Source of the DNA: Lewinellaceae bacterium
GTDB taxonomy: Bacteria > Bacteroidota > Bacteroidia > Chitinophagales > Saprospiraceae
Assembly (NCBI GenBank): GCA_040380145.1
Contig: JBEIJQ010000001.1
Span: 1 to 59,662 of the forward strand
Direction: 5' to 3'
DNA: 59,662 nt
Part shown: piece by piece, positions 6,427-36,429 of the stretch
Position numbering within the stretch: the first letter of the stretch is position 1
Layout of the letters: the number at the start of each line of letters is the position of its first letter
The notes under the pieces: model-generated
The model's input: the letters and a program-made list of their open reading frames with translations, nothing else
Database searches by the model: none
Told to the model about the DNA's origin: nothing
Position numbers and translations under genes: made by a program

Positions 6427-6828
6427 TTACGGAAGATCGAAGTGTATTTCCATCGACGCCCAGGTCGTGGCGTCGTGGTCGTAATAGGCCTTGGCGGTCA
6501 TGTGCAGCTCCGTGCCGGCGGGTAGCCCCGACAGGTCGATCGTATCCAGAAAACTGTAGTTGGGCAAGTGCAGGTGCGAGCCTTCCCACGAAAAGACCGT
6601 GGAGTCGTTGGCTTCGTTTTTCAGCTCCACTTCCGCGTCGTGCAGTTCATCGGAGGCGGTGAACAGCACCGACAGGACCACCTGAGAGGCATCGGCCAAC
6701 GTGGAAGTGTCCAACGGGGAAATGATCGCGACCGATAGGGTCTGGTTGTCATATGTATGTGTATGGCAGGAGGCGAACCAGGTGGTGCAGACAGACAATG
6801 CGGTCAACAAAAAGATGCTTTTTTTCAT
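6427..6828 (-). CDS. small lipoprotein (His-rich), paralog of 6852..7256
   Basis: MKKSIFLLTALSVCTTWFASC gives a signal peptide plus lipobox Cys. It shares the 'LHDxEV', 'HxHxxNY' and 'DLSxxxAGTE' blocks with the neighbouring gene. Confidence 0.6.
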   Translation of the reverse strand: MKKSIFLLTALSVCTTWFASCHTHTYDNQTLSVAIISPLDTSTLADASQVVLSVLFTASDELHDAEVELKNEANDSTVFSWEGSHLHLPNYSFLDTIDLSGLPAGTELHMTAKAYYDHDATTWASMEIHFDLP

Positions 6829-6851
6829 GTCGAAAAATTTTTTTGAAAAAA

Positions 6852-7256
6852 TTAAGGAATAAAAAATCGATGCTCTCGGGTGACTTTATCGGTACCGAAC
6901 TCGTCCAAGTAGGCATCGGCCACGAGCGAAAATTCAGTGCCGGCTGTGTAAGTGGACAAATCCAGCAGGTGGGTATGTGTGTAGTTCTGCTGATGGGTAT
7001 GCTGCTCGAAAAGATACGCGGTGTCGTTGTCCGCAGCGAGCACCACCCGAACTTCAATATCGTGCAGGCCGTCGGAGGACAAAAATTCCACGTTCAAAGG
7101 AACAGCCGTCGCATTGGCCACCACTTGTCCGGAGGTGGGAGATACCAATCGGATCTCGATCCCGGCATTGTCGCGAGAACATGAGGACGCCAAAAATGAA
7201 GCGGCGGTCAAAAAGAAAGCTGCAAAGATTTTACCAAGGGAGGAGAAGTGTGTCAT
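6852..7256 (-). CDS. small lipoprotein (His-rich), paralog of 6427..6828
   Basis: The leader 'FLTAASFLASSC' has a lipobox. 'GLHDIEVRV' and 'HTHQQNYTHTH' align along the whole length with the downstream paralog. Confidence 0.6.
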   Translation of the reverse strand: MTHFSSLGKIFAAFFLTAASFLASSCSRDNAGIEIRLVSPTSGQVVANATAVPLNVEFLSSDGLHDIEVRVVLAADNDTAYLFEQHTHQQNYTHTHLLDLSTYTAGTEFSLVADAYLDEFGTDKVTREHRFFIP

Positions 7257-7605: not shown

Positions 7606-8016
7606 TCATTCCCCGTTGTATTCCACATAGTTTCGGGGCGTTTCCCAGAGCCTGATGCCGAGTTCGAAGCGAGTGTCGAGTTTTTCGCGCAGGAGCTGCC
7701 AGATGACATAGCAGATGTGTTCGGCGGTGGGGTTCAGTTCCTTGAACTGTGGCACCTCGAGGTTGAGGTTTTTGTGGTCGAAGCGATCTTCCACTTCTTC
7801 CTTTATCAGATCTGCCAGGTATTTCAGATCGATCAGGTAGCCGGTATCGGGATCCACCTCGCCCGTGACCCGTACCTCCAGGTCGTAGTTGTGGCCGTGG
7901 TAAAGGGGATTGTTGCACAGTCCGAACACGGCGCGGTTGCGTTCGTCCGACCAAGCGGAGTTGTGCAGCCGATGGGCGGCGTTGAAATGGGCGCGGCGGA
8001 AAGCGGAAATCCTCAT
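7606..8016 (-). CDS. queD: 6-carboxy-5,6,7,8-tetrahydropterin synthase / 6-pyruvoyl-tetrahydropterin synthase family
   Basis: 136 aa. 'RRAHFNAAHRL' and 'CNNPLYHGHNYDLEV' give the Cys plus His zinc/catalytic motifs. Length is typical of the PTPS fold. Confidence 0.85.
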   Translation of the reverse strand: MRISAFRRAHFNAAHRLHNSAWSDERNRAVFGLCNNPLYHGHNYDLEVRVTGEVDPDTGYLIDLKYLADLIKEEVEDRFDHKNLNLEVPQFKELNPTAEHICYVIWQLLREKLDTRFELGIRLWETPRNYVEYNGE

Positions 8017-25879: not shown

Positions 25880-27021
25880 CTATCTGAACCGATAGAGGTC
25901 CGACAGTCCGGAACCGCTGGTCAACAGTATGGCCATCAATTCGGGAAACCGATCGGGCGTGCAGGCAAACGACGGGATATCCAGATCGCCCAGTTTTTGT
26001 GCCAAGTGCTGGTCGAAAGAGGGCGCGCCCTCGTCGGAAAGGGCCAGCAGCACGACCATGCGCACACCGGAGCGCTTCAGTTCGGCGCATTTTTTCAACA
26101 TCTGGGCAGCATTTCCTCCCTCGTACAGGTCGCTGATCAGCACCAAAACCGTCTCTGCGGGCCGGGCGATCAGTTTTTCGCAGTACTTGAGCGCGTTGTG
26201 GATGTCGGTGCCGCCGCCCAGTTGGGCGGCAAACAGCAGTTCGACGGGGTCTTCCAGGTCCTTGGTCAGGTCCACGGCCGCGGTGTCGAAAACGACCATT
26301 TTGGTGGTGATCGAACGGATGCTGGCCAGCACCGCTCCGTACACGCCGGCATATACCACCGAAGCGGCCATCGAGCCGCTCTGGTCCACGCACAGGATGA
26401 TGTCCCGCAGGCTTTTTCCCTTGCGGCCGAATCCTTCGAGATCTTGGGGGATGATGGTCTTGAACTCGCTCTGGTAATGCTTCAGGTTGCGCCGGACGGT
26501 GCGTTGCCAGTCGATCTCGTGGATCCTCGGGCGGCGGTTGCGCACTTGGCGGCTCATCGCGCCGGCGATGGCTTCGCGCAGGGGCGCCGACAATTTTTTT
26601 CCAGGTCTTCTACCACTTTGCGGACGACCGTTCGGGCCGTGTCGCGGGTTTTTTCGGGCATGGCCCGTTTGAGCGAGATCAGGGTGCCGACCAAGTGCAC
26701 ATCGGCTTCGATGGTGCTCAGCACCTCGGGTTCGAACAGCAGCCGGTCCAGTTCGTATTTTTCGATGGCGTCCTTGATCATGATCTGCACCACCGATGTA
26801 GGGAAATACTGCCGGATGTCGCCCAGCCAGCGGTTCAGGCGGGGCGCCGAACTGCCCAACCCGCCTTTCCGGTCGTTTTCCGAATTGCGTCCTCCTTTTT
26901 CGGAAGAAAGGTCGCCGTACAGGTCTTCGAGCGCTTTGTCCATTTCCCCTTCGATGCCCGACAGGGGCACGCTCTGTTCGGGATCCGACGGGGCTCCGAG
27001 TATCAATCTCCAGCGTTCCAT
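25880..27021 (-). pseudogene. CoxE/YehP-like von Willebrand factor A domain protein, interrupted by a 1-nt frameshift in an A7 tract
   Basis: The N-terminal fragment (27021..26554) begins 'MERWRLILG'. The C-terminal fragment (26593..25880) has MIDAS 'CVDQSGSM' and 'GGGTD'. The two frames overlap at the T7 run (plus strand) 26594-26600. One extra A gives ...VVEDLEKKLSAPLREAIAG... in frame. Confidence 0.65.
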
Positions 27022-27060
27022 TTGTTGTAGTTGGTTTTTGTGGGGGGCAAAAAAGCGATT

Positions 27061-27755
27061 TTACGCTTTGCGGTGTTTGTTGAGGGCCTCCACCAACAAA
27101 TGTACTCGGGTGTTGGGATTTTGTTTGACAAAGTCACGATCCTCTCCGAAGTTTTCGTCGTAGTGTTCGTTCAGTTTTTTGGCATGTTTTATCGCCTTGT
27201 TCTCGTCGCAATACTCGCGCAGGACCGAGTACATGTCGGGATGGTTTTTCTCATATGTAAATTCGGGTTTTTGGACACTTTTTTTACATGCTTTTCAATC
27301 AGTTCTTTGTATTCATCTCTCGAGTGGCCGCTGGTGAAATAAGCAAAATGAAGCAGGTACCAAATTTCGAAAGCCTCATTTGACCACGCACAATCGATCT
27401 TGTTTTGAGCGCCCATTTGAATGGCCGAATTGAAATCTTTGTCAAAACTGTCCTTGTCGAAAACCGCCCAGACCTGGTCATACTCTCGATTATTTTCTTT
27501 TTCCCGAACAGCTCGCAACCTAATGGTTTCGCCCACCAAAGAACGGGTGTTCATGCCTACGCCTTTGATTTCGACATCCACGAGACCGACCGGCAAGGAT
27601 TTTTTGATGGAGTCAAAATAATTGGGCTCGGTTCTTTCCCCTTCGCAAACGATCAAAAAATACTCCCGCAAAATCCGGTTGCCCGGTTCGCGTTTTTTTT
27701 CCTTGCGTTCGAATTGTATGCGTTTGGAAAGATCTAATTTCGTGATCCGTGCCAT
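27061..27755 (-). pseudogene. RloB/AbiLii-like protein, interrupted by a 1-nt frameshift in an A7 tract
   Basis: 'YFLIVCEGERTEPNYF' and 'VWAVFDKD' form the RloB-type N-terminal core (ORF 27189..27755). The last ~70 codons (…PEFTYEKNHPDMYSVLREYCDENKAIKHAKKLNEHY…NPNTRVHLLVEALNKHRKA, stop at 27061-27063) continue in another frame. They are rejoined by adding one A to the run at 27279-27285. Confidence 0.7.
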
Positions 27756-28963
27756 TATGAAAGCAGTTTTTTGAAATCGCCGAAAAAAGGAATGGCCCCA
27801 TAGCGGCCTTCCAAATAGTGTTGCTCGTTTATTTTCTCTTCGCCCCCGAACTCCAACAGCGAATACAAATCGGACGAGCCGTTGTGGTCTTTTTCCACAA
27901 AATAAATTTGATCTTTTCTCAAACTGCAGTAGCTCAACAAGTTGGTATCATGCGTCGCAAATATCAATTGAGCGCCCGATGGGTTGATTTCACGGGAATG
28001 AAACAACTCGACGATCCTCTTGGTCAACAAGGGGTGCAACTTGGCGTCCAGCTCGTCTATTACCGACACGCCACCGTTTTGAAGGGCTGTGAACAGGCTA
28101 CCGGCGATGTCTATGATTTTGTTGGTACCGGAACTTTCGTTGCGGGTTGCGTCCAAAGGCACTTTTTCGATCGCATGGCCGTTCTCGTCGTACCTTTCAT
28201 GGAATGTGGTCCTTTTGATAAAGCTGCGGTTGGTATCTTTCCAGACTGTCTTTTCCATTTCCAAATTATTGAACCCCAGGTTCAGGTCGGCGAAAAAATT
28301 GTTCAGCGCTTCGTTCAGGCTTTTATTCCCCAAGATTTCTAGGGTGGTATATTCGTGCATTTTGGTATGAATGCCGGAAATGATCTGCAAATGGCTGAAC
28401 CATTTCATGATTTCTTTGGAGACAGGGCCGTTGAAACTGTCCGCCACGCTCAAAAACAAGGTATTGTCCCTGGTTTTCTCTTCCAATCCTCGGCCCTCTC
28501 TAAAGTCATCGTCTATGACATCGATGCCCTCTTTAATACGGACGAAGAGAGGCTTTTCTTTGCTCTTGTCAGTTTTGGAAAAGAGCCATTCCGCTTGAAC
28601 GGCGCTCCGATCGGCTTCAAATCCGTAGCGGTAACGGGTTGTTCCGCCCAAGACAAACACCACTTCGTAAAAAGTGGGTTCGAGGGTGCCTTTTTCGTTG
28701 AACAAAAAGGGTTCGTACTTGAGGGGGCGGGTAGAGTTTTGGGCTATGTTATTCAGCACGATGTATCTCATGATTTCCAGCCCCAGGAGCAGGTTCGATT
28801 TGCCGGAAGAATTGGCCCCATAGATGGCCGCCGTCGCCAAGCATTTGTAGGAGCCCTTCTTGAAGGTGTTGACGGAGTTGCCTTTGGTCGAAGCCGGGAC
28901 CATGCTGAGTGTTTTCCGCGCATAAAACGAACGAAAATTCCCGAGGGTAAATTCTAAGATCAT
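27755..28963 (-). CDS. AAA_21/ABC-type ATPase (AbiLi/RloA-like)
   Basis: Walker A 'YGANSSGKSN', signature-like 'ESSGTNK', Walker B 'VSVIDELDAKLHP' and H-loop 'IFATHD'. The stop TAA overlaps the ATG of the RloB-like gene (TAATG at 27753-27757). Confidence 0.8.
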   Translation of the reverse strand: MILEFTLGNFRSFYARKTLSMVPASTKGNSVNTFKKGSYKCLATAAIYGANSSGKSNLLLGLEIMRYIVLNNIAQNSTRPLKYEPFLFNEKGTLEPTFYEVVFVLGGTTRYRYGFEADRSAVQAEWLFSKTDKSKEKPLFVRIKEGIDVIDDDFREGRGLEEKTRDNTLFLSVADSFNGPVSKEIMKWFSHLQIISGIHTKMHEYTTLEILGNKSLNEALNNFFADLNLGFNNLEMEKTVWKDTNRSFIKRTTFHERYDENGHAIEKVPLDATRNESSGTNKIIDIAGSLFTALQNGGVSVIDELDAKLHPLLTKRIVELFHSREINPSGAQLIFATHDTNLLSYCSLRKDQIYFVEKDHNGSSDLYSLLEFGGEEKINEQHYLEGRYGAIPFFGDFKKLLS

Positions 28964-28983
28964 ATCAGGAAAAAAAATTTTCT

Positions 28984-28991
28984 CAAAAATA
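28984..28991 (-). promoter_or_regulatory. candidate Bacteroidota -7 promoter element (TAnnTTTG) for the ATPase gene
   Basis: The minus strand reads TATTTTTG about 21 nt upstream of ATG 28963. It lies downstream of the adhesin terminator. Confidence 0.3.
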
Positions 28992-29068
28992 TACTTTTTC
29001 GGTCATCGAAAAGGGCTTCGTAATAGAGCTGTGCGCCCAACATGCCGAATGGACAAGGGCTTTTTTCC

Positions 29069-29101
29069 AAAAAAGAAGCCCAACGAAAGGCGTTGGGCTT
29101 C
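29069..29101 (-). terminator. intrinsic terminator of the giant adhesin gene
   Basis: An 11-bp stem, GAAGCCCAACG (29075-29085) pairing with CGTTGGGCTTC (29091-29101). On the minus strand it is followed by a T6 run (A-run 29069-29074 on plus). Confidence 0.6.
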
Positions 29102-29128
29102 TTTGAGAAAGGATCGGGCTGGAGGGGT

Positions 29129-32100
29129 TCACCGGATCAGCGTCACATCGCCCGTCACGGTGCGCGTTTCGGCGTCGTCGGGCAGGCGGATGCGGAGCAC
29201 ATAGATATAAACATCGCGGGGCATGGGTTCGCCGTTGCGGGTTCCGTCCCAGCCGCTGAGGGGGTCGTCGAACACGAGGTTGCCCCAGCGGTCGTACACC
29301 TTGAAGGTTTCGATGGTGGCGTTGCCCGACACCAAGGGACGGAAAACGGGATTGAGGGGGTCGCCGTTGGGGGTGAAGGCGTTCGGCAGCGCAAAGGCCG
29401 AGGGCACCACCACCACGCTCACTTCGTCTGAGTTGGTACAGGCGATGTTGGCCGCGGTGACGGTGAACACATACTGTCCGGGCTGTCCGAAATTGCCGGT
29501 CACGGAGTTGCCCGTGGCGGTGTTCAGGTTGGCGGCGGGAGACCAAGTGTAGGTCACGCCGGCTTCGTTGGCCCCGGCGTTCAGTTCGACGGGCACGCCG
29601 CCGAAGACGGTGTCGGACACCTGTCCGGGAGCGCCGGCCCAAGCGTCGAGCACCGGGATGGGCACTTCGGTCACGGTGGCCGCAGCGGTGGCCGTACAGG
29701 CCGAAGCGTCGGTCACGGTCACGGTATAGCTGCCGGGCGCCAGATCCACGAGGTCTTCGGCCGTCGAGCCGTTCGACCAAAGGAAGGCGACGGCGCCGGC
29801 GTTGCCGGCAAAATCCAGGGCGAGATCGCCGGAATCACTGCCCGCGCATCCGATACCGGACTGCACCGCCGAGGCGGTCAGTGCGCAAGTGGCCGTGCAG
29901 GACAGCGAAACCGCCGCTCCCGTGCACTGAGCGCCCACCGGACGCACCTGCAAGGTGACGGTCTGTGTGGGGGTAAGTCCGTTGGCGGTGTAGGTGAGCA
30001 CATTGCCCAGGTTTGTCCAAGTGGCGCCGCCGTCCAGACTGATCTCGTAGGAAATCGCGCCGGCCACGGCCACCCAATCGAAGGTCACGCTGCTACCGGA
30101 AGCGGTACCGCACGAAAGCGTGGTGGCAGGTATGGTACAGTTTTCGGAGGTGCAGCTCAGCGTCGCCGACGGCCCCGGGCACTCGCCGAACGCACGGACT
30201 TGAATGGTGAAGGTCTGTCCGGGCGCGAGGTTGTTGACGACATATGCCAGCACATTGCCCACATTGATCCAAGTGGCGCCGCCGTTGAGGCTCACCTCGT
30301 AATAAACGGCTCCGGCGATCGGGGCCCATTCAAAGGTGACCGAACTCGTGGTGGGGGTACCGCAGCTGAGCACGGGCGCGGGCAGGCTCAGCACCGCCAC
30401 GGGGAGGGTGTCGCGGAACACGCAGTTGTTCCAGGTGGCCTGCACGACATAATCCAAGGTGGCCTGCGGGCTGCCCACGGGAGCTGGCGAGGCGGCGTTG
30501 TTCAAGGTATTGGCGGGGGTCCAGGTATATACGGCGTTGGCGAAGGGGTTGCCGAGGTCCGGGGCGAAGCGCCACGCCTCGTTGTTGGCCGACCAAGTGG
30601 CGGCGTTGCGGCCCGGAGCGGCATAACCGGCCGTGCCCGTGGCATTCTCGATGCCGATCGTCCCCGGCGAAATGTTGTTGACGCTGGTCACATGCACCTC
30701 GGCGATGTTGGTGGATTCGTATAGGACGATCTGCGAGGTGACGGTCTGACCGGCTCCGCCGAAAATAGGCACACTGTTCCAATTGACCACCAAACGGCGG
30801 TTGGGCGCCGCGCCGGTGGTGAAATAGCCGATCGTGCCGCCTCCGCCGGGATTGAGATCGTCCCAGGCCGCTGCGATCAGGTTGTTGGAAGGGAAGAAGT
30901 CGGGGAGGTTTTGTCCGGCGCAGCAACCGGCTCCGGCCAAGGGGTCAAAACTGATGAAGCCGTTGGACGAGATGTGGAACTGGCTGTAGTTGTTGCAGAA
31001 AAAATTGAAATTGAAACCAATAGGCAACGCACCCGTCAACTGGTCGTCGGTCAAGGTCACATTGGTCTGGCTGCCGGCCACGGGCGCGAAAGCGGTGGAG
31101 GTGACCACGTATTCGTCGCAAACGGGGGCGGGCGGCGCGATGGGGCTGAAAACATCGGCGTTCAGCTGCACGGTCTGGCCCAGACAAAGCGTGTCGGTGG
31201 ATTGGGCCGTGGCCAAGAAAATCGAATCGCAGGTCAGACAGAGCAGGTTGCCCGGAGCCAATACCGTGATGGTGAAGGAAGTGTCGTGCACGCAACCGAA
31301 ATCGTCGGTCACCTGATAAGTGTAGGTGTGCAGGCCCGGCGTGGCCGGACTGACCGTCAGCACATCGCCGTTGTTGGCCACGATGCCGGGCGCGTTCAGC
31401 CACAGCGAATCCACGATGACGGTGCTGAAACTGTCCTGATAGATCGGGTCCAGATAGTTGGGGTTGAAGGTGAGGCCCCAGTTGAAAATGAAACCGTTGT
31501 CGATGCCGAGGTTGTCGGTGATGGTGATGGTCCAAATGCCGTTGACCGGACAGCCGACCAGACCGGCAAAACTTTGCTCGGGCGCATAATCGCCCGCTGG
31601 CAGGTACGCTTGGTTGTTGTAAACATTCCCGGACACATCGGTGAACGTCTGGAAAAAAGTGTTGGCGTTGTCGCCCCAAGTGCCGGCGGGCGCGTTTTCC
31701 TCCCAGCAGTAATTGTAGCCGACGCCCACTACCTGTGGATTGGGGTTGTCGTCGAAGTCGTTGGGCTCGCCCAAAAAGGTGCCGCCGCCGCCGCTGGGAT
31801 AGTTCAAGAGATCAATGGTCTGGCCCGTCGGACAGGTGATGGTGATGTCGAGGTCGCCCATGAAGGAGTGTTCCATCGTCACGCAGATGCTCTGCAGGTC
31901 GGACGGGGTGGCCACAGTGGCGAATCCGGAATATCCTTGGACGGGAATACTGGTGGTGTAGGGGATGCCCACGTTGTCGGGAAGAGGCAACTGCTCCGAA
32001 AAAAAGGAGGGCGGGCTGAAATCCACCATGGGGGTCACGGCGTCGCCGACAAGGGTGGCGGTGTCGCCGAGGCAGATGGTGTCCTGAATGGAAGAGCGGA

Positions 32101-32860: not shown

Positions 32861-32912
32861 ATTATTTTTCTAAAAAAAAAAGGGAAAAAAGGGGAAAAGT
32901 GCTCAACGGGGA

Positions 32913-36379: not shown

Positions 36380-36429
36380 TTTTTGTGTATATTTTTTTTC
36401 AGAAAAATTTTTGCCAAAAACAAAAAAAA

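What the first reader, a model, noticed from the sequence alone, without database searches (positions are those of the whole stretch)
27022..29128. AT-rich 2-kb island with a translationally coupled AAA_21 ATPase and RloB/AbiLii-like gene (candidate anti-phage defence module)
Seen in sequence: hand counts of several 60-nt samples give about 45-50% GC inside 27.1-28.9 kb and about 60% in the flanking adhesin and VWA genes. The island contains exactly two genes. The first is a 402-aa ABC-type ATPase with GANSSGKS, VIDELD and ATHD motifs. The second has the 'LIVCEGERTEPNYF' core. The stop of the first overlaps the start of the second (TAATG). The island begins just after the strong terminator of the adhesin gene and has its own TAnnTTTG box. 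No integrase, transposase or flanking direct repeats were found. Established knowledge: the RloB family (Pfam PF13707) includes AbiLii of the lactococcal AbiL abortive-infection system and rloB of Campylobacter R-M loci, and it is typically paired with an AAA_21/AAA_15 ATPase. Inference: this is a horizontally acquired AbiL-like or OLD-like two-component defence module in a GC-rich Bacteroidota host. The mechanism of this pairing is still essentially uncharacterised.
Basis: partly seen in the sequence, partly recalled or inferred. Interest (0 to 1): 0.8.

Follow-up and report, generated by a model that had tools for sequence, protein, structure and literature searches.

The report
AbiL-type two-gene phage-defence cassette
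This is an ordinary, already catalogued type of two-gene bacterial anti-virus module (an ATPase plus an RloB nuclease-like protein) that looks recently imported into a GC-rich Bacteroidota genome; its one apparent defect, a broken second gene, is most likely a sequencing error.

Summary
A 2.1-kb stretch (27022-29128) has 46% GC against 58% elsewhere. On the minus strand it carries exactly two genes: a 402-aa AAA_21 ABC ATPase (PADLOC AbiLi, E=2e-88) and an RloB/AbiLii gene, overlapping as TAATG. It lies between the adhesin terminator and a VWA gene, with no integrase, tRNA or flanking repeats.

The defence reading is supported, but this is a known kind, the AbiL system. The family is very large: at least 7,979 ATPase and 1,728 RloB homologues. 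It recurs elsewhere as the same solo, AT-richer cassette. This copy is divergent, at most 52-55% identical to any relative.

- **New here:** RloB is frameshifted in the window at an A7 run (27279-27285).
- An independent 99.9%-identical assembly has A8 there and an intact 231-aa gene. A third allele has an in-frame 27-nt deletion at the same spot.
- The neighbouring VWA gene carries the same A8-to-A7 defect, so the break is probably an assembly artefact.

The likely mechanism is PARIS/OLD-like: the ATPase senses infection and restrains the nuclease, which aborts infection once released. This is inferred. AbiL remained biochemically untested in the 2024-2026 papers I read. Horizontal acquisition rests on composition only, because no close relative exists for an empty-site test. 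Interest is low to moderate.

The parts
27755..28963 (-). abiLi-like gene: a 402-aa Rad50/SMC-type ABC ATPase (AAA_21). Key motifs: Walker A G49-S56 (28796-28819), ABC signature E276-K282 (28118-28138), Walker B/D-loop VIDELD 301-306 (28046-28063) and H-loop H338 (27950-27952).
   Evidence: Pfam AAA_21 E=3.7e-33. PADLOC AbiLi E=2.2e-88. All catalytic motifs are invariant in an alignment with 25 homologues. The AF2 model (pLDDT 79.8) matches Rad50, Septu PtuA, Retron-Eco7 PtuA and Thermus OLD. The identical protein occurs in two other assemblies.
27061..27755 (-). abiLii/rloB-like gene. It is read as 188 aa plus a shifted C-terminus in the window, and as 231 aa once one A is restored. Predicted TOPRIM-type acidic residues: E38 (27642-27644), D100 (27456-27458) and D102 (27450-27452).
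   Evidence: The truncated ORF gives Pfam RloB E=5.4e-37. The repaired protein covers the full profile 1-195/195 with E=2.9e-46. PADLOC AbiLii E=4.1e-30. It aligns end to end with 21 homologues, and invariant residues continue through the C-terminus. The AF2 model has four beta-alpha units, with E38 after strand 1 and D100xD102 after strand 3.
27279..27285 (-). A7 homopolymer (T7 on the + strand) that frameshifts rloB in the window. It is A8 in an independent assembly. In a third allele it is removed by an in-frame 27-nt deletion.
   Evidence: L062 is 99.9% identical and has A8 here. Allele P0241 lacks the residues EKHVKKSVQ.
27755..27759 (-). TAATG stop/start overlap between the two genes, which suggests translational coupling.
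   Evidence: Read directly from the sequence. Homologous pairs also overlap, by 16 and 23 nt.
28984..28991 (-). TATTTTTG box that fits the Bacteroidota -7 promoter motif TAnnTTTG, 21 nt upstream of the abiLi ATG. It is a candidate promoter for the cassette itself.
   Evidence: Read from the sequence. This is a consensus match only. The sigma-70 scan is not informative for this phylum.
29072..29104 (-). Intrinsic terminator of the upstream adhesin gene. It marks the upstream edge of the AT-rich segment.
   Evidence: Perfect 14-bp inverted repeat with a 5-nt loop. dG -24.8 kcal/mol, z -3.66, followed by a U-run.
27022..27060 (-). 39-nt spacer between the rloB stop and the VWA_CoxE start. A weak hairpin plus T-run straddles the stop codon (27049-27069). 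This is the downstream edge of the island.
   Evidence: Read from the sequence. The same 39-nt gap is present in the JGI contig.

Best explanation
This is a self-contained AbiL-type (RloA/RloB-like) anti-phage cassette. It is a two-gene operon with its own promoter. The first gene encodes a Rad50/SMC-like ABC ATPase (AbiLi). The second, translationally coupled gene encodes an RloB-family protein (AbiLii) with a TOPRIM-like acidic active site.

**Shown here**
- The identity of both proteins.
- Retention of every ATPase catalytic motif and of the RloB invariant acidic residues.
- The operon layout.
- Composition that is foreign to the host (GC and GC3).
- An intact version of the gene in the natural population.

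**Inferred, by analogy with PARIS (AriA/AriB) and P2 OLD**
- The ATPase oligomer binds the RloB nuclease and keeps it inactive, acting as sensor and antitoxin.
- A phage-derived cue changes the ATPase conformation or its ATP cycle.
- RloB is released or activated and cuts an essential nucleic acid. tRNA is the best-precedented target and DNA is the alternative.
- Growth stops and the infection is aborted.

The cassette was probably acquired horizontally by a Saprospiraceae-like Bacteroidota host. The frameshift in the window's rloB is most likely a homopolymer miscall, not real decay.
For: **Identity.** PADLOC AbiLi E=2.2e-88 and AbiLii E=2.6e-24, rising to 4.1e-30 for the repaired protein. 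Pfam AAA_21 and full-length RloB.

**Active sites.** The ATPase motifs are invariant. RloB residues E38, E43, D100, E127, E130 and H136 are invariant, and D102 is nearly so.

**Fold.**
- AbiLi matches Rad50, PtuA and OLD.
- The RloB model has a four-unit beta-alpha core with the Glu after strand 1 and DxD after strand 3. This is the TOPRIM order (Aravind 1998, as cited in PMC11464382).
- hhalign places CEGERTEPNYF on P2 Old VEG-KTETNVL, though not significantly.

**Conserved pairing.** The same ATPase-then-RloB overlapping pair stands alone among housekeeping genes in L143 and L144. In L144 a Septu-like pair lies two genes away. The pair also occurs on a Hymenobacter plasmid.

**Literature.**
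- AbiL protects Lactococcus (Deng 1999, via PMC13064643).
- AbiL is grouped with ABC ATPase plus TOPRIM systems (PMC11464382 Fig. 6c; PMC12409363).
- RloB is related to OLD_TOPRIM by HHpred (PMC10440598).
- AbiLii superimposes on OLD structure 6NJV (PMC13064643).
- AriB and P2 OLD are tRNases (PMC11464382; bioRxiv 10.64898/2026.07.10.737580).

**Foreign composition.**

**Intact alleles.** A8 in L062 and the 27-nt deletion in P0241. The neighbouring VWA gene shows the same A8-to-A7 defect, and 4 of 10 long A/T runs differ between the assemblies.
Against: - There is no experiment on this locus, and none on the mechanism of any AbiL system.
- The Foldseek search of the RloB model against PDB gave no TOPRIM or OLD hit in the top 50. 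Only generic alpha/beta folds appeared, with TM 0.25-0.38.
- The RloB profile found nothing in PDB by sequence.
- The hhalign match to P2 Old is not significant.
- The published review reports poor superposition of AbiLii on AriB, and AbiLi shares little with AriA outside the ATPase core (PMC13064643). PARIS-like stoichiometry and triggers may therefore not carry over.
- The window copy lacks a roughly 20-aa insert and the nearly invariant 'DRS' segment found in most relatives.
- The window sequence as given encodes a truncated RloB.
- Acquisition is not shown by an empty site.
Confidence: 0.75

Rival explanations
1. The cassette is a decaying remnant. In the genome the window comes from, rloB (the toxic effector) is truly inactivated by a 1-nt deletion, leaving an orphan ATPase.
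For: The window sequence has A7 at 27279-27285, which gives a 188-aa product lacking the conserved C-terminal helices. Losing the toxin half of a toxin/antitoxin-like pair costs the cell nothing. The population is heterogeneous at this gene: it has a 27-nt deletion allele, E23K, and Cys/Gly at codon 183.
Against: A 99.9%-identical assembly has A8 and an open frame. The adjacent housekeeping-type VWA gene has the same A8-to-A7 break in the window only. All four indels between the assemblies lie in A/T runs of at least 7 nt, and 4 of 10 such runs differ. That pattern is typical of sequencing noise. There are no further stops or substitutions downstream of the shift. The C-terminal frame keeps every family-invariant residue, so any inactivation would have to be very recent.
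Confidence: 0.12
2. The pair is a type II toxin-antitoxin or addiction module, with an AAA antitoxin and a TOPRIM toxin. Its main role is its own maintenance or a stress response, not phage defence.
For: NetFlax places AAA-plus-RloB/TOPRIM pairs inside the type II TA network and validated related pairs as toxin/antitoxin (PMC10440598). Relatives sit on small mobilizable plasmids.
Against: The founding member, AbiL, was found through a phage-resistance phenotype (PMC13064643). PARIS shows that TA behaviour and defence are the same mechanism seen from two sides. One homologue sits beside a Septu-like system. A chromosomal single copy between housekeeping genes has nothing obvious to stabilise.
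Confidence: 0.08
3. The pair is native, not horizontally acquired. The low GC reflects the family's Lys/Asn/Glu/Phe-rich amino-acid composition, or selection for AT-richness.
For: GC2 is very low (0.22-0.35), so part of the GC deficit comes from amino-acid content. Homologous pairs are also AT-richer than their hosts in L143 and L144, so low GC could be a property of the family. No mobility gene, repeat or tRNA marks the edges. No empty site was found.
Against: GC3, which is largely free of protein constraint, is 0.53-0.63 against 0.74-0.80 in host genes. The nearest relatives are only 52-55% identical and are scattered over Bacteroidota and other phyla, plasmids and phages. None of 141 VWA-homologue loci has the pair. 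The composition changes exactly at the intergenic edges.
Confidence: 0.08
4. The pair is an RloA/RloB accessory of a type I restriction-modification locus, as in Campylobacter.
For: The family name and the Pfam RloB model come from such loci (PMC10440598).
Against: There are no hsdR, hsdM or hsdS genes nearby. The neighbours are a T9SS adhesin, VWA_CoxE, peptidases and a thioredoxin-like protein. The flanking genes have no PADLOC hits.
Confidence: 0.02

Closest known systems
AbiL (AbiLi/AbiLii) abortive-infection system of Lactococcus lactis plasmid pND861, as modelled in PADLOC
   Same: It has the same two-gene, ATPase-first layout, with an AAA_21 ABC ATPase and an RloB-family partner. PADLOC's AbiLi and AbiLii models are the top hits (E=2.2e-88 and 4.1e-30).
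   Different: This copy is chromosomal, in a GC-rich Bacteroidota host, not on a lactococcal plasmid. It is the short ATPase variant: 402 aa, lacking a roughly 20-aa insert and the 'VRKDRSF' segment. The matches cover only part of the PADLOC profiles (49-293/326 and 19-90/170). The phenotype is untested.
PARIS (AriA ABC ATPase + AriB DUF4435 TOPRIM tRNase)
   Same: Both are split ABC ATPase plus TOPRIM-class effector systems of the AAA_15/21 defence-ATPase clade (PMC11464382 Fig. 6c). PARIS is the best-understood model for how such a pair could work: sequestration, trigger-induced release, tRNA cleavage.
   Different: The effector here is RloB (PF13707), not DUF4435. There is no AriB hit in PADLOC. 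The only AriA hit is PDLC02980, whose profile length and matched spans equal those of Pfam AAA_21, so it looks like a generic AAA_21 match. The review reports poor structural superposition of AbiLii on AriB and different ATPase insertions (PMC13064643). The trigger and the target are unknown.
OLD-family nucleases (P2 Old, Thermus OLD; class 2 GajA of Gabija)
   Same: They combine the same ATPase class with a TOPRIM-type nuclease chemistry. The AbiLi model matches Thermus OLD 6P74. The RloB 'hhhCEGxxTE' motif resembles the OLD TOPRIM motif 'VEGKTE'.
   Different: In OLD and GajA the two domains are fused in one polypeptide, whereas here they are separate genes. There is no GajB helicase. The sequence and fold link between RloB and OLD TOPRIM was not statistically recovered here.
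Campylobacter RloA/RloB genes of type I R-M loci
   Same: Same protein families. A Hymenobacter plasmid homologue of the ATPase is annotated 'RloA'.
   Different: There is no restriction-modification context here.
Septu (PtuA ABC ATPase + PtuB HNH)
   Same: The ATPase is structurally close: PtuA structures 8EE4, 8SUX and 8EEA are among the top Foldseek hits.
   Different: The effector here is RloB, not an HNH nuclease.

Membership tests
AbiL system (PADLOC/DefenseFinder sense) | AbiLi-type AAA_21/AAA_15 ABC ATPase | tested here: met
   PADLOC PDLC02335 AbiLi E=2.2e-88. Pfam AAA_21 E=3.7e-33, 116 bits against a cutoff of 27.
AbiL system (PADLOC/DefenseFinder sense) | AbiLii / RloB-family partner protein | tested here: met
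   PADLOC AbiLii E=2.6e-24 for the truncated ORF and 4.1e-30 for the repaired protein. Pfam RloB covers the full profile with E=2.9e-46 once the A8 allele is used.
AbiL system (PADLOC/DefenseFinder sense) | The two genes are adjacent, co-oriented and in one operon | tested here: met
   TAATG overlap at 27755-27759. The same arrangement is seen in L143, L144 and L062.
AbiL system (PADLOC/DefenseFinder sense) | Both reading frames are intact | tested here: inconclusive
   rloB is broken in the window (A7). It is intact in L062 (A8) and in P0241. An artefact is likely.
AbiL system (PADLOC/DefenseFinder sense) | Abortive-infection / phage-resistance phenotype | not testable with these tools
   This needs expression and a phage challenge.
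ABC ATPase + TOPRIM (OLD-like) defence systems | Rad50/SMC-like ABC ATPase with Walker A, Q-loop/signature, Walker B and H-loop | tested here: met
   The motifs are invariant in alignment A2. Foldseek matches Rad50, SMC, PtuA and OLD with E values down to 4e-12.
ABC ATPase + TOPRIM (OLD-like) defence systems | The effector has a TOPRIM fold, with a conserved Glu after strand 1 and DxD after strand 3 | tested here: inconclusive
PARIS | AriB effector with a DUF4435 TOPRIM domain | tested here: not met
   At E<=10 Pfam gives only RloB, plus a sub-threshold PBECR5 match (E 0.036). There is no DUF4435 hit and no AriB hit in PADLOC.
Gabija | Fused ATPase-TOPRIM GajA plus the GajB UvrD-like helicase | tested here: not met
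   The domains are on separate genes. There is no helicase gene in the island. GajA scores only E=3.6e-6.
Septu | PtuB HNH nuclease partner | tested here: not met
   The partner is RloB and has no HNH hit.
RloAB of type I R-M loci | Embedded among hsdR/hsdM/hsdS genes | tested here: not met
   The neighbours are an adhesin, VWA_CoxE and peptidases. The flanking genes have no PADLOC hits.
Genomic island / horizontally acquired DNA | Atypical composition with sharp boundaries | tested here: met
   46.3% against 57.9% GC, z -3.9. GC3 is 0.53-0.63 against 0.74-0.80.
Genomic island / horizontally acquired DNA | Presence/absence polymorphism among close relatives (an empty site) | tested here: inconclusive
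   The closest VWA-containing loci in GTDB representatives and JGI metagenomes are at most 65% identical. None carries the pair, but synteny is lost anyway.
Genomic island / horizontally acquired DNA | Mobility hallmarks (integrase, tRNA target, flanking repeats) | tested here: not met
   None were found.

The most novel reading that the evidence does not exclude
The A8 tract inside rloB could be a real contingency site rather than an error. Assemblies of what appears to be one natural population (99.9% identical where DNA could be compared) carry three states at exactly this spot:
- A8, intact;
- A7, with the effector switched off;
- a 27-nt in-frame deletion that removes the tract, which would be 'locked on'.

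Slippage at the tract, in DNA or in the transcript, could then tune how much of a potentially self-toxic TOPRIM effector is made. That would be phase variation of an abortive-infection nuclease.
Probability: 0.06. Interest if true: 0.5.

Novelty: new member of a known kind. Interest (0 to 1): 0.25.

Why it matters
The scientific weight is modest. The locus adds a divergent, compact (402 + 231 aa) AbiL pair from a GC-rich, Saprospiraceae-like Bacteroidota host. The AbiL family is abundant, with thousands of members, yet its trigger, nuclease substrate and assembly state have not been determined.

A short-variant pair with natural alleles (A8, the 27-nt deletion, Cys/Gly at codon 183) could be a convenient construct for the experiments the field still lacks. 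These would test whether ATPase + RloB systems work like PARIS and OLD.

For genome annotation, the practical lesson is that the apparent pseudogene is probably a homopolymer miscall. The contig carries at least two such ORF-breaking errors within 700 nt.

Tried and rejected
1. **Empty-site search.** I scanned GTDB representative genomes with the VWA C-terminal part and JGI metagenome contigs with the VWA N-terminal part. The best hits were 59-65% identical. tblastn of nine window proteins against all 142 loci found no AbiL pair beside any VWA homologue, and no conserved synteny either. The question stays open.

2. **TOPRIM fold test.**
   - Foldseek of the RloB AF2 model against PDB gave only generic alpha/beta folds.
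   - The RloB profile against PDB sequences gave nothing.
   - hhalign against P2 Old aligned the right motif without significance.
   - I tried to build an OLD-TOPRIM profile from plasmids and from PDB. Both attempts returned nothing usable, so I abandoned this line.

3. **Brute-force frameshift scan.** A scan at all homopolymers was too noisy in this GC-rich sequence. I replaced it with Pfam completeness checks on suspicious ORF pairs (all intact) and with direct comparison to independent contigs.

4. **Exact-protein look-ups.**
   - The prolyl oligopeptidase look-up found nothing.
   - The 346-aa neighbour look-up succeeded and gave L148.

5. **RNA searches.** Rfam and tRNA searches of the whole window found nothing.

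6. **Sigma-70 promoter scan.** The only strong hit overlaps the start codon, and the consensus does not apply to Bacteroidota.

7. **Other systems considered and rejected.** PARIS, Gabija, Septu and R-M-linked RloAB were ruled out; see the membership tests.
Full report
**1. The observation**

The finding is accurate.
- Sliding-window GC falls from 0.60-0.69 in both flanks to 0.43-0.49 between about 27000 and 29000.
- The interval 27022-29128 is 46.3% GC, against 57.9% for the rest of the window.
- It is the lowest 2.1-kb stretch of the contig, with z = -3.9.
- Third-codon-position GC is 0.63 for the ATPase and 0.53-0.60 for RloB. Nine host genes or gene parts give 0.74-0.80.

The interval runs exactly from the stop of a 1243-aa CHU_C (type IX secretion) adhesin at 29129 to the start of a VWA_CoxE gene at 27021.

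On the minus strand it holds two genes.
- The first is a 402-aa ORF at 27755..28963 with the motifs YGANSSGKS, VIDELD and FATHD.
- The second starts at 27755 and contains LIVCEGERTEPNYF.
- Its ATG shares an A with the ATPase stop, giving TAATG.

- The adhesin is followed by a perfect 14-bp hairpin plus U-run at 29072-29104, with dG -24.8 kcal/mol and z -3.66.
- A TATTTTTG box that fits the Bacteroidota TAnnTTTG -7 motif sits 21 nt before the ATPase ATG.
- There are no meaningful flanking repeats, no tRNA, no Rfam family and no integrase or transposase.

**2. What the genes are**

Curated models agree on both proteins.
- ATPase: Pfam AAA_21 (E=3.7e-33) and PADLOC AbiLi (E=2.2e-88).
- Second gene: Pfam RloB (E=5.4e-37) and PADLOC AbiLii (E=2.6e-24).

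For the ATPase, an alignment with 25 homologues shows that it keeps every invariant catalytic element:
- Walker A, G49-S56;
- ABC signature, E276-SSGTNK-282;
- Walker B/D-loop, D303-ELD-306;
- H-loop, H338-D339.

It is a short variant. It lacks a roughly 20-aa insert and the nearly invariant 'VRKDRSF' segment.

Its AlphaFold model (pLDDT 79.8) is most similar to Rad50 and SMC heads. Among defence ATPases it matches PtuA of Septu, PtuA of Retron-Eco7 and Thermus OLD.

The family is very large.
- At least 7,979 ATPase homologues have E<1e-10, and 1,728 RloB homologues were found.
- The best hits are only 52-55% identical, so this copy is a divergent member.
- Homologous pairs in L143 and L144 have the same ATPase-then-RloB overlapping layout.
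- They stand alone among housekeeping genes and are also AT-richer than their flanks (38% against 48%, and 49% against 56%).
- In L144 a Septu-like ATPase plus HNH pair lies two genes away.
- More distant relatives (at most 37% identity) occur on 190 plasmids, including a Hymenobacter plasmid with 'RloA' plus an RloB gene, and on a few phages.
- The best viral structural match of the RloB model is a myovirus RloB-like protein, with TM 0.72.

**3.

In the window, RloB is split.
- The 188-aa ORF covers Pfam profile positions 1-148.
- Positions 158-195 lie in a different frame, at 27061..27234.
- The switch maps to an A7 run at 27279-27285.
- Adding one A gives a 231-aa protein that covers the whole RloB profile (E=2.9e-46).
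- That protein aligns end to end with 21 homologues. All family-invariant C-terminal residues are present: Y168, K170, N213, P214 and T216.

Independent assemblies settle what the native state is.
- Logan contig L062 (run ERR9973196) is 99.9% identical over 10.7 kb. It has A8 at this site.
- A JGI contig encodes the identical ATPase followed by a 222-aa intact RloB, P0241.
- P0241 lacks EKHVKKSVQ. This is a 27-nt in-frame deletion that removes the A tract.
- P0241 also carries E23K, and Gly instead of Cys at the nearly invariant position 183.

The neighbouring gene points to an artefact.
- The adjacent VWA_CoxE gene is also broken in the window at an A7 run (26594-26600).
- It is intact, at 380 aa with A8, in Logan contig L148.
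- Across the 13.3 kb shared with the two Logan contigs, all four indels fall in A/T runs of at least 7 nt.
- Four of the ten such runs differ, and there are only nine substitutions.
- Other genes I checked in the window are complete.

The simplest reading is homopolymer miscalling in the window's assembly. A real, very recent inactivation in that strain cannot be excluded without its reads.

**4. Host and acquisition**

- The VWA protein's best matches in GTDB representatives are Saprospiraceae MAGs, at 64-65% identity.
- The adhesin carries a T9SS CHU_C domain.
- The host is therefore a Bacteroidota, probably related to Saprospiraceae, with no close sequenced relative.
- None of 141 VWA-homologue loci carries the pair. 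Synteny is not conserved at that distance, so this is weak evidence.
- Horizontal acquisition therefore rests on composition, on the scattered distribution of the family, and on the cassette-like recurrence described above. The insertion mechanism is unknown.

**5. How it most likely works**

Shown here:
- a Rad50-like ABC ATPase with a complete catalytic set;
- a tightly coupled partner with invariant acidic residues (E38, E43, D100, E127, E130; D102 is nearly invariant). In the model, E38 sits right after strand 1 and D100 and D102 sit right after strand 3 of a four-unit beta-alpha core, which is the TOPRIM arrangement.

From the literature:
- AbiL confers phage resistance in Lactococcus (Deng 1999, via PMC13064643).
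- AbiL is grouped with PARIS, OLD, Gabija, retron and MADS systems as an ABC ATPase plus TOPRIM pairing (PMC11464382; PMC12409363; bioRxiv 10.64898/2026.07.10.737580).
- RloB relates to OLD_TOPRIM by HHpred (PMC10440598).
- AbiLii superimposes on OLD structure 6NJV (PMC13064643).
- In PARIS, an AriA hexamer sequesters AriB until a phage protein binds. Released AriB then cleaves tRNA-Lys.
- P2 OLD is now also reported to be a tRNase.

Inferred:
- AbiLi oligomers hold RloB inactive.
- A phage cue releases or activates it.
- RloB cuts tRNA, or possibly DNA as GajA does, and aborts the infection.

My own attempts to recover the TOPRIM link were inconclusive. The 2026 review states that whether AbiL works like PARIS is still untested. 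I therefore put about 0.85 on the identity of the cassette and about 0.5 on the PARIS-like mechanism.

**6. Comparison and membership**

- The locus meets the operational definition of AbiL: both models hit, and the genes are adjacent and co-oriented.
- It is not PARIS, because there is no DUF4435/AriB.
- It is not Gabija, because the domains are not fused and there is no GajB.
- It is not Septu, because there is no HNH partner.
- It is not an R-M-embedded RloAB, because there are no hsd genes.

**7. Verdict**

- The finding is real, correctly located and correctly interpreted.
- It is a new, divergent member of a known and very common kind.
- The added value from this second look is threefold. 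The apparent pseudogene is probably an artefact. Intact natural alleles exist. The acquisition claim cannot yet be tested by comparison.
- Interest is 0.25.

Noticed in passing
window 26594-26600 (VWA_CoxE gene, ORFs 26554..27021 and 25880..26593, minus strand): The neighbouring VWA_CoxE gene is split by a 1-nt deficit in an A7 run. The independent contig L148 has A8 and a single 380-aa ORF. In relatives the two parts are in one frame.
   Followed up: yes
window 32872-32881 and 36392-36399: Two more homopolymer length differences between the window and contig L062: 10 against 9, and 8 against 7. Both are intergenic. Together with the two ORF-breaking ones, 4 of the 10 A/T runs of at least 7 nt in the shared 13.3 kb differ.
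   Followed up: yes
window 27208-27210 (rloB codon 183): The window has TGC (Cys) where the family has a nearly invariant Gly, and the JGI allele has Gly. The two Logan contigs L062 and L148 end at 27211 and 27209, on either side of base 27210. This suggests both alleles coexist in that sample.
   Followed up: partly
JGI contig of sample 3300059473 (protein P0241); corresponds to about window 27262-27290: A natural rloB allele has an in-frame 27-nt deletion that removes EKHVKKSVQ, including the A tract that is frameshifted in the window. It also carries E23K. The deleted segment falls in a variable stretch of the family alignment.
   Followed up: partly
L144 9624-11698 (GCA_964432875.1 contig CAYSPJ010000054.1): Two genes downstream of an AbiL homologue pair lies a Septu-like pair: an AAA_15/AAA_21/DUF2813 ATPase plus a 269-aa protein with weak HNH hits. 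Together they form a small defence cluster.
   Followed up: partly
L146 1108-2848 (E. coli plasmid p602A1-4K, CP100022.1) and many 4.6-5.1 kb enterobacterial plasmids: Small mobilizable plasmids carry an AbiLi-like ATPase (32% identity) followed by a 145-aa protein with no Pfam hit. The same ATPase clade may therefore pair with a different, unannotated partner.
   Followed up: partly
window 27022-27060: Only 39 nt separate the rloB stop from the VWA_CoxE start, with just a weak hairpin and T-run. The VWA gene may be read through from the cassette, or it may use a promoter inside rloB.
   Followed up: no
L009, L015, L016, L056 compared with L001, L011, L046 and the window: In Dyadobacter, Pedobacter, Flectobacillus and a Bacteroidota MAG, the VWA_CoxE gene follows a 740-1000-aa ORF on the same strand. 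In three of the four loci (L009, L016, L056) a roughly 350-aa ORF precedes that one. In the Saprospiraceae MAGs and in the window, the VWA gene stands alone.
   Followed up: partly
window 6427-7256, minus strand: Two tandem ORFs of about 133 aa sit in the second-lowest-GC stretch of the window (about 0.48-0.50). Their N-termini look like lipoprotein signals and their sequences look paralogous. A gene whose sequence looks like 6-pyruvoyl-tetrahydropterin synthase lies next to them at 7606..8016. These calls were made by eye, without a family search.
   Followed up: no
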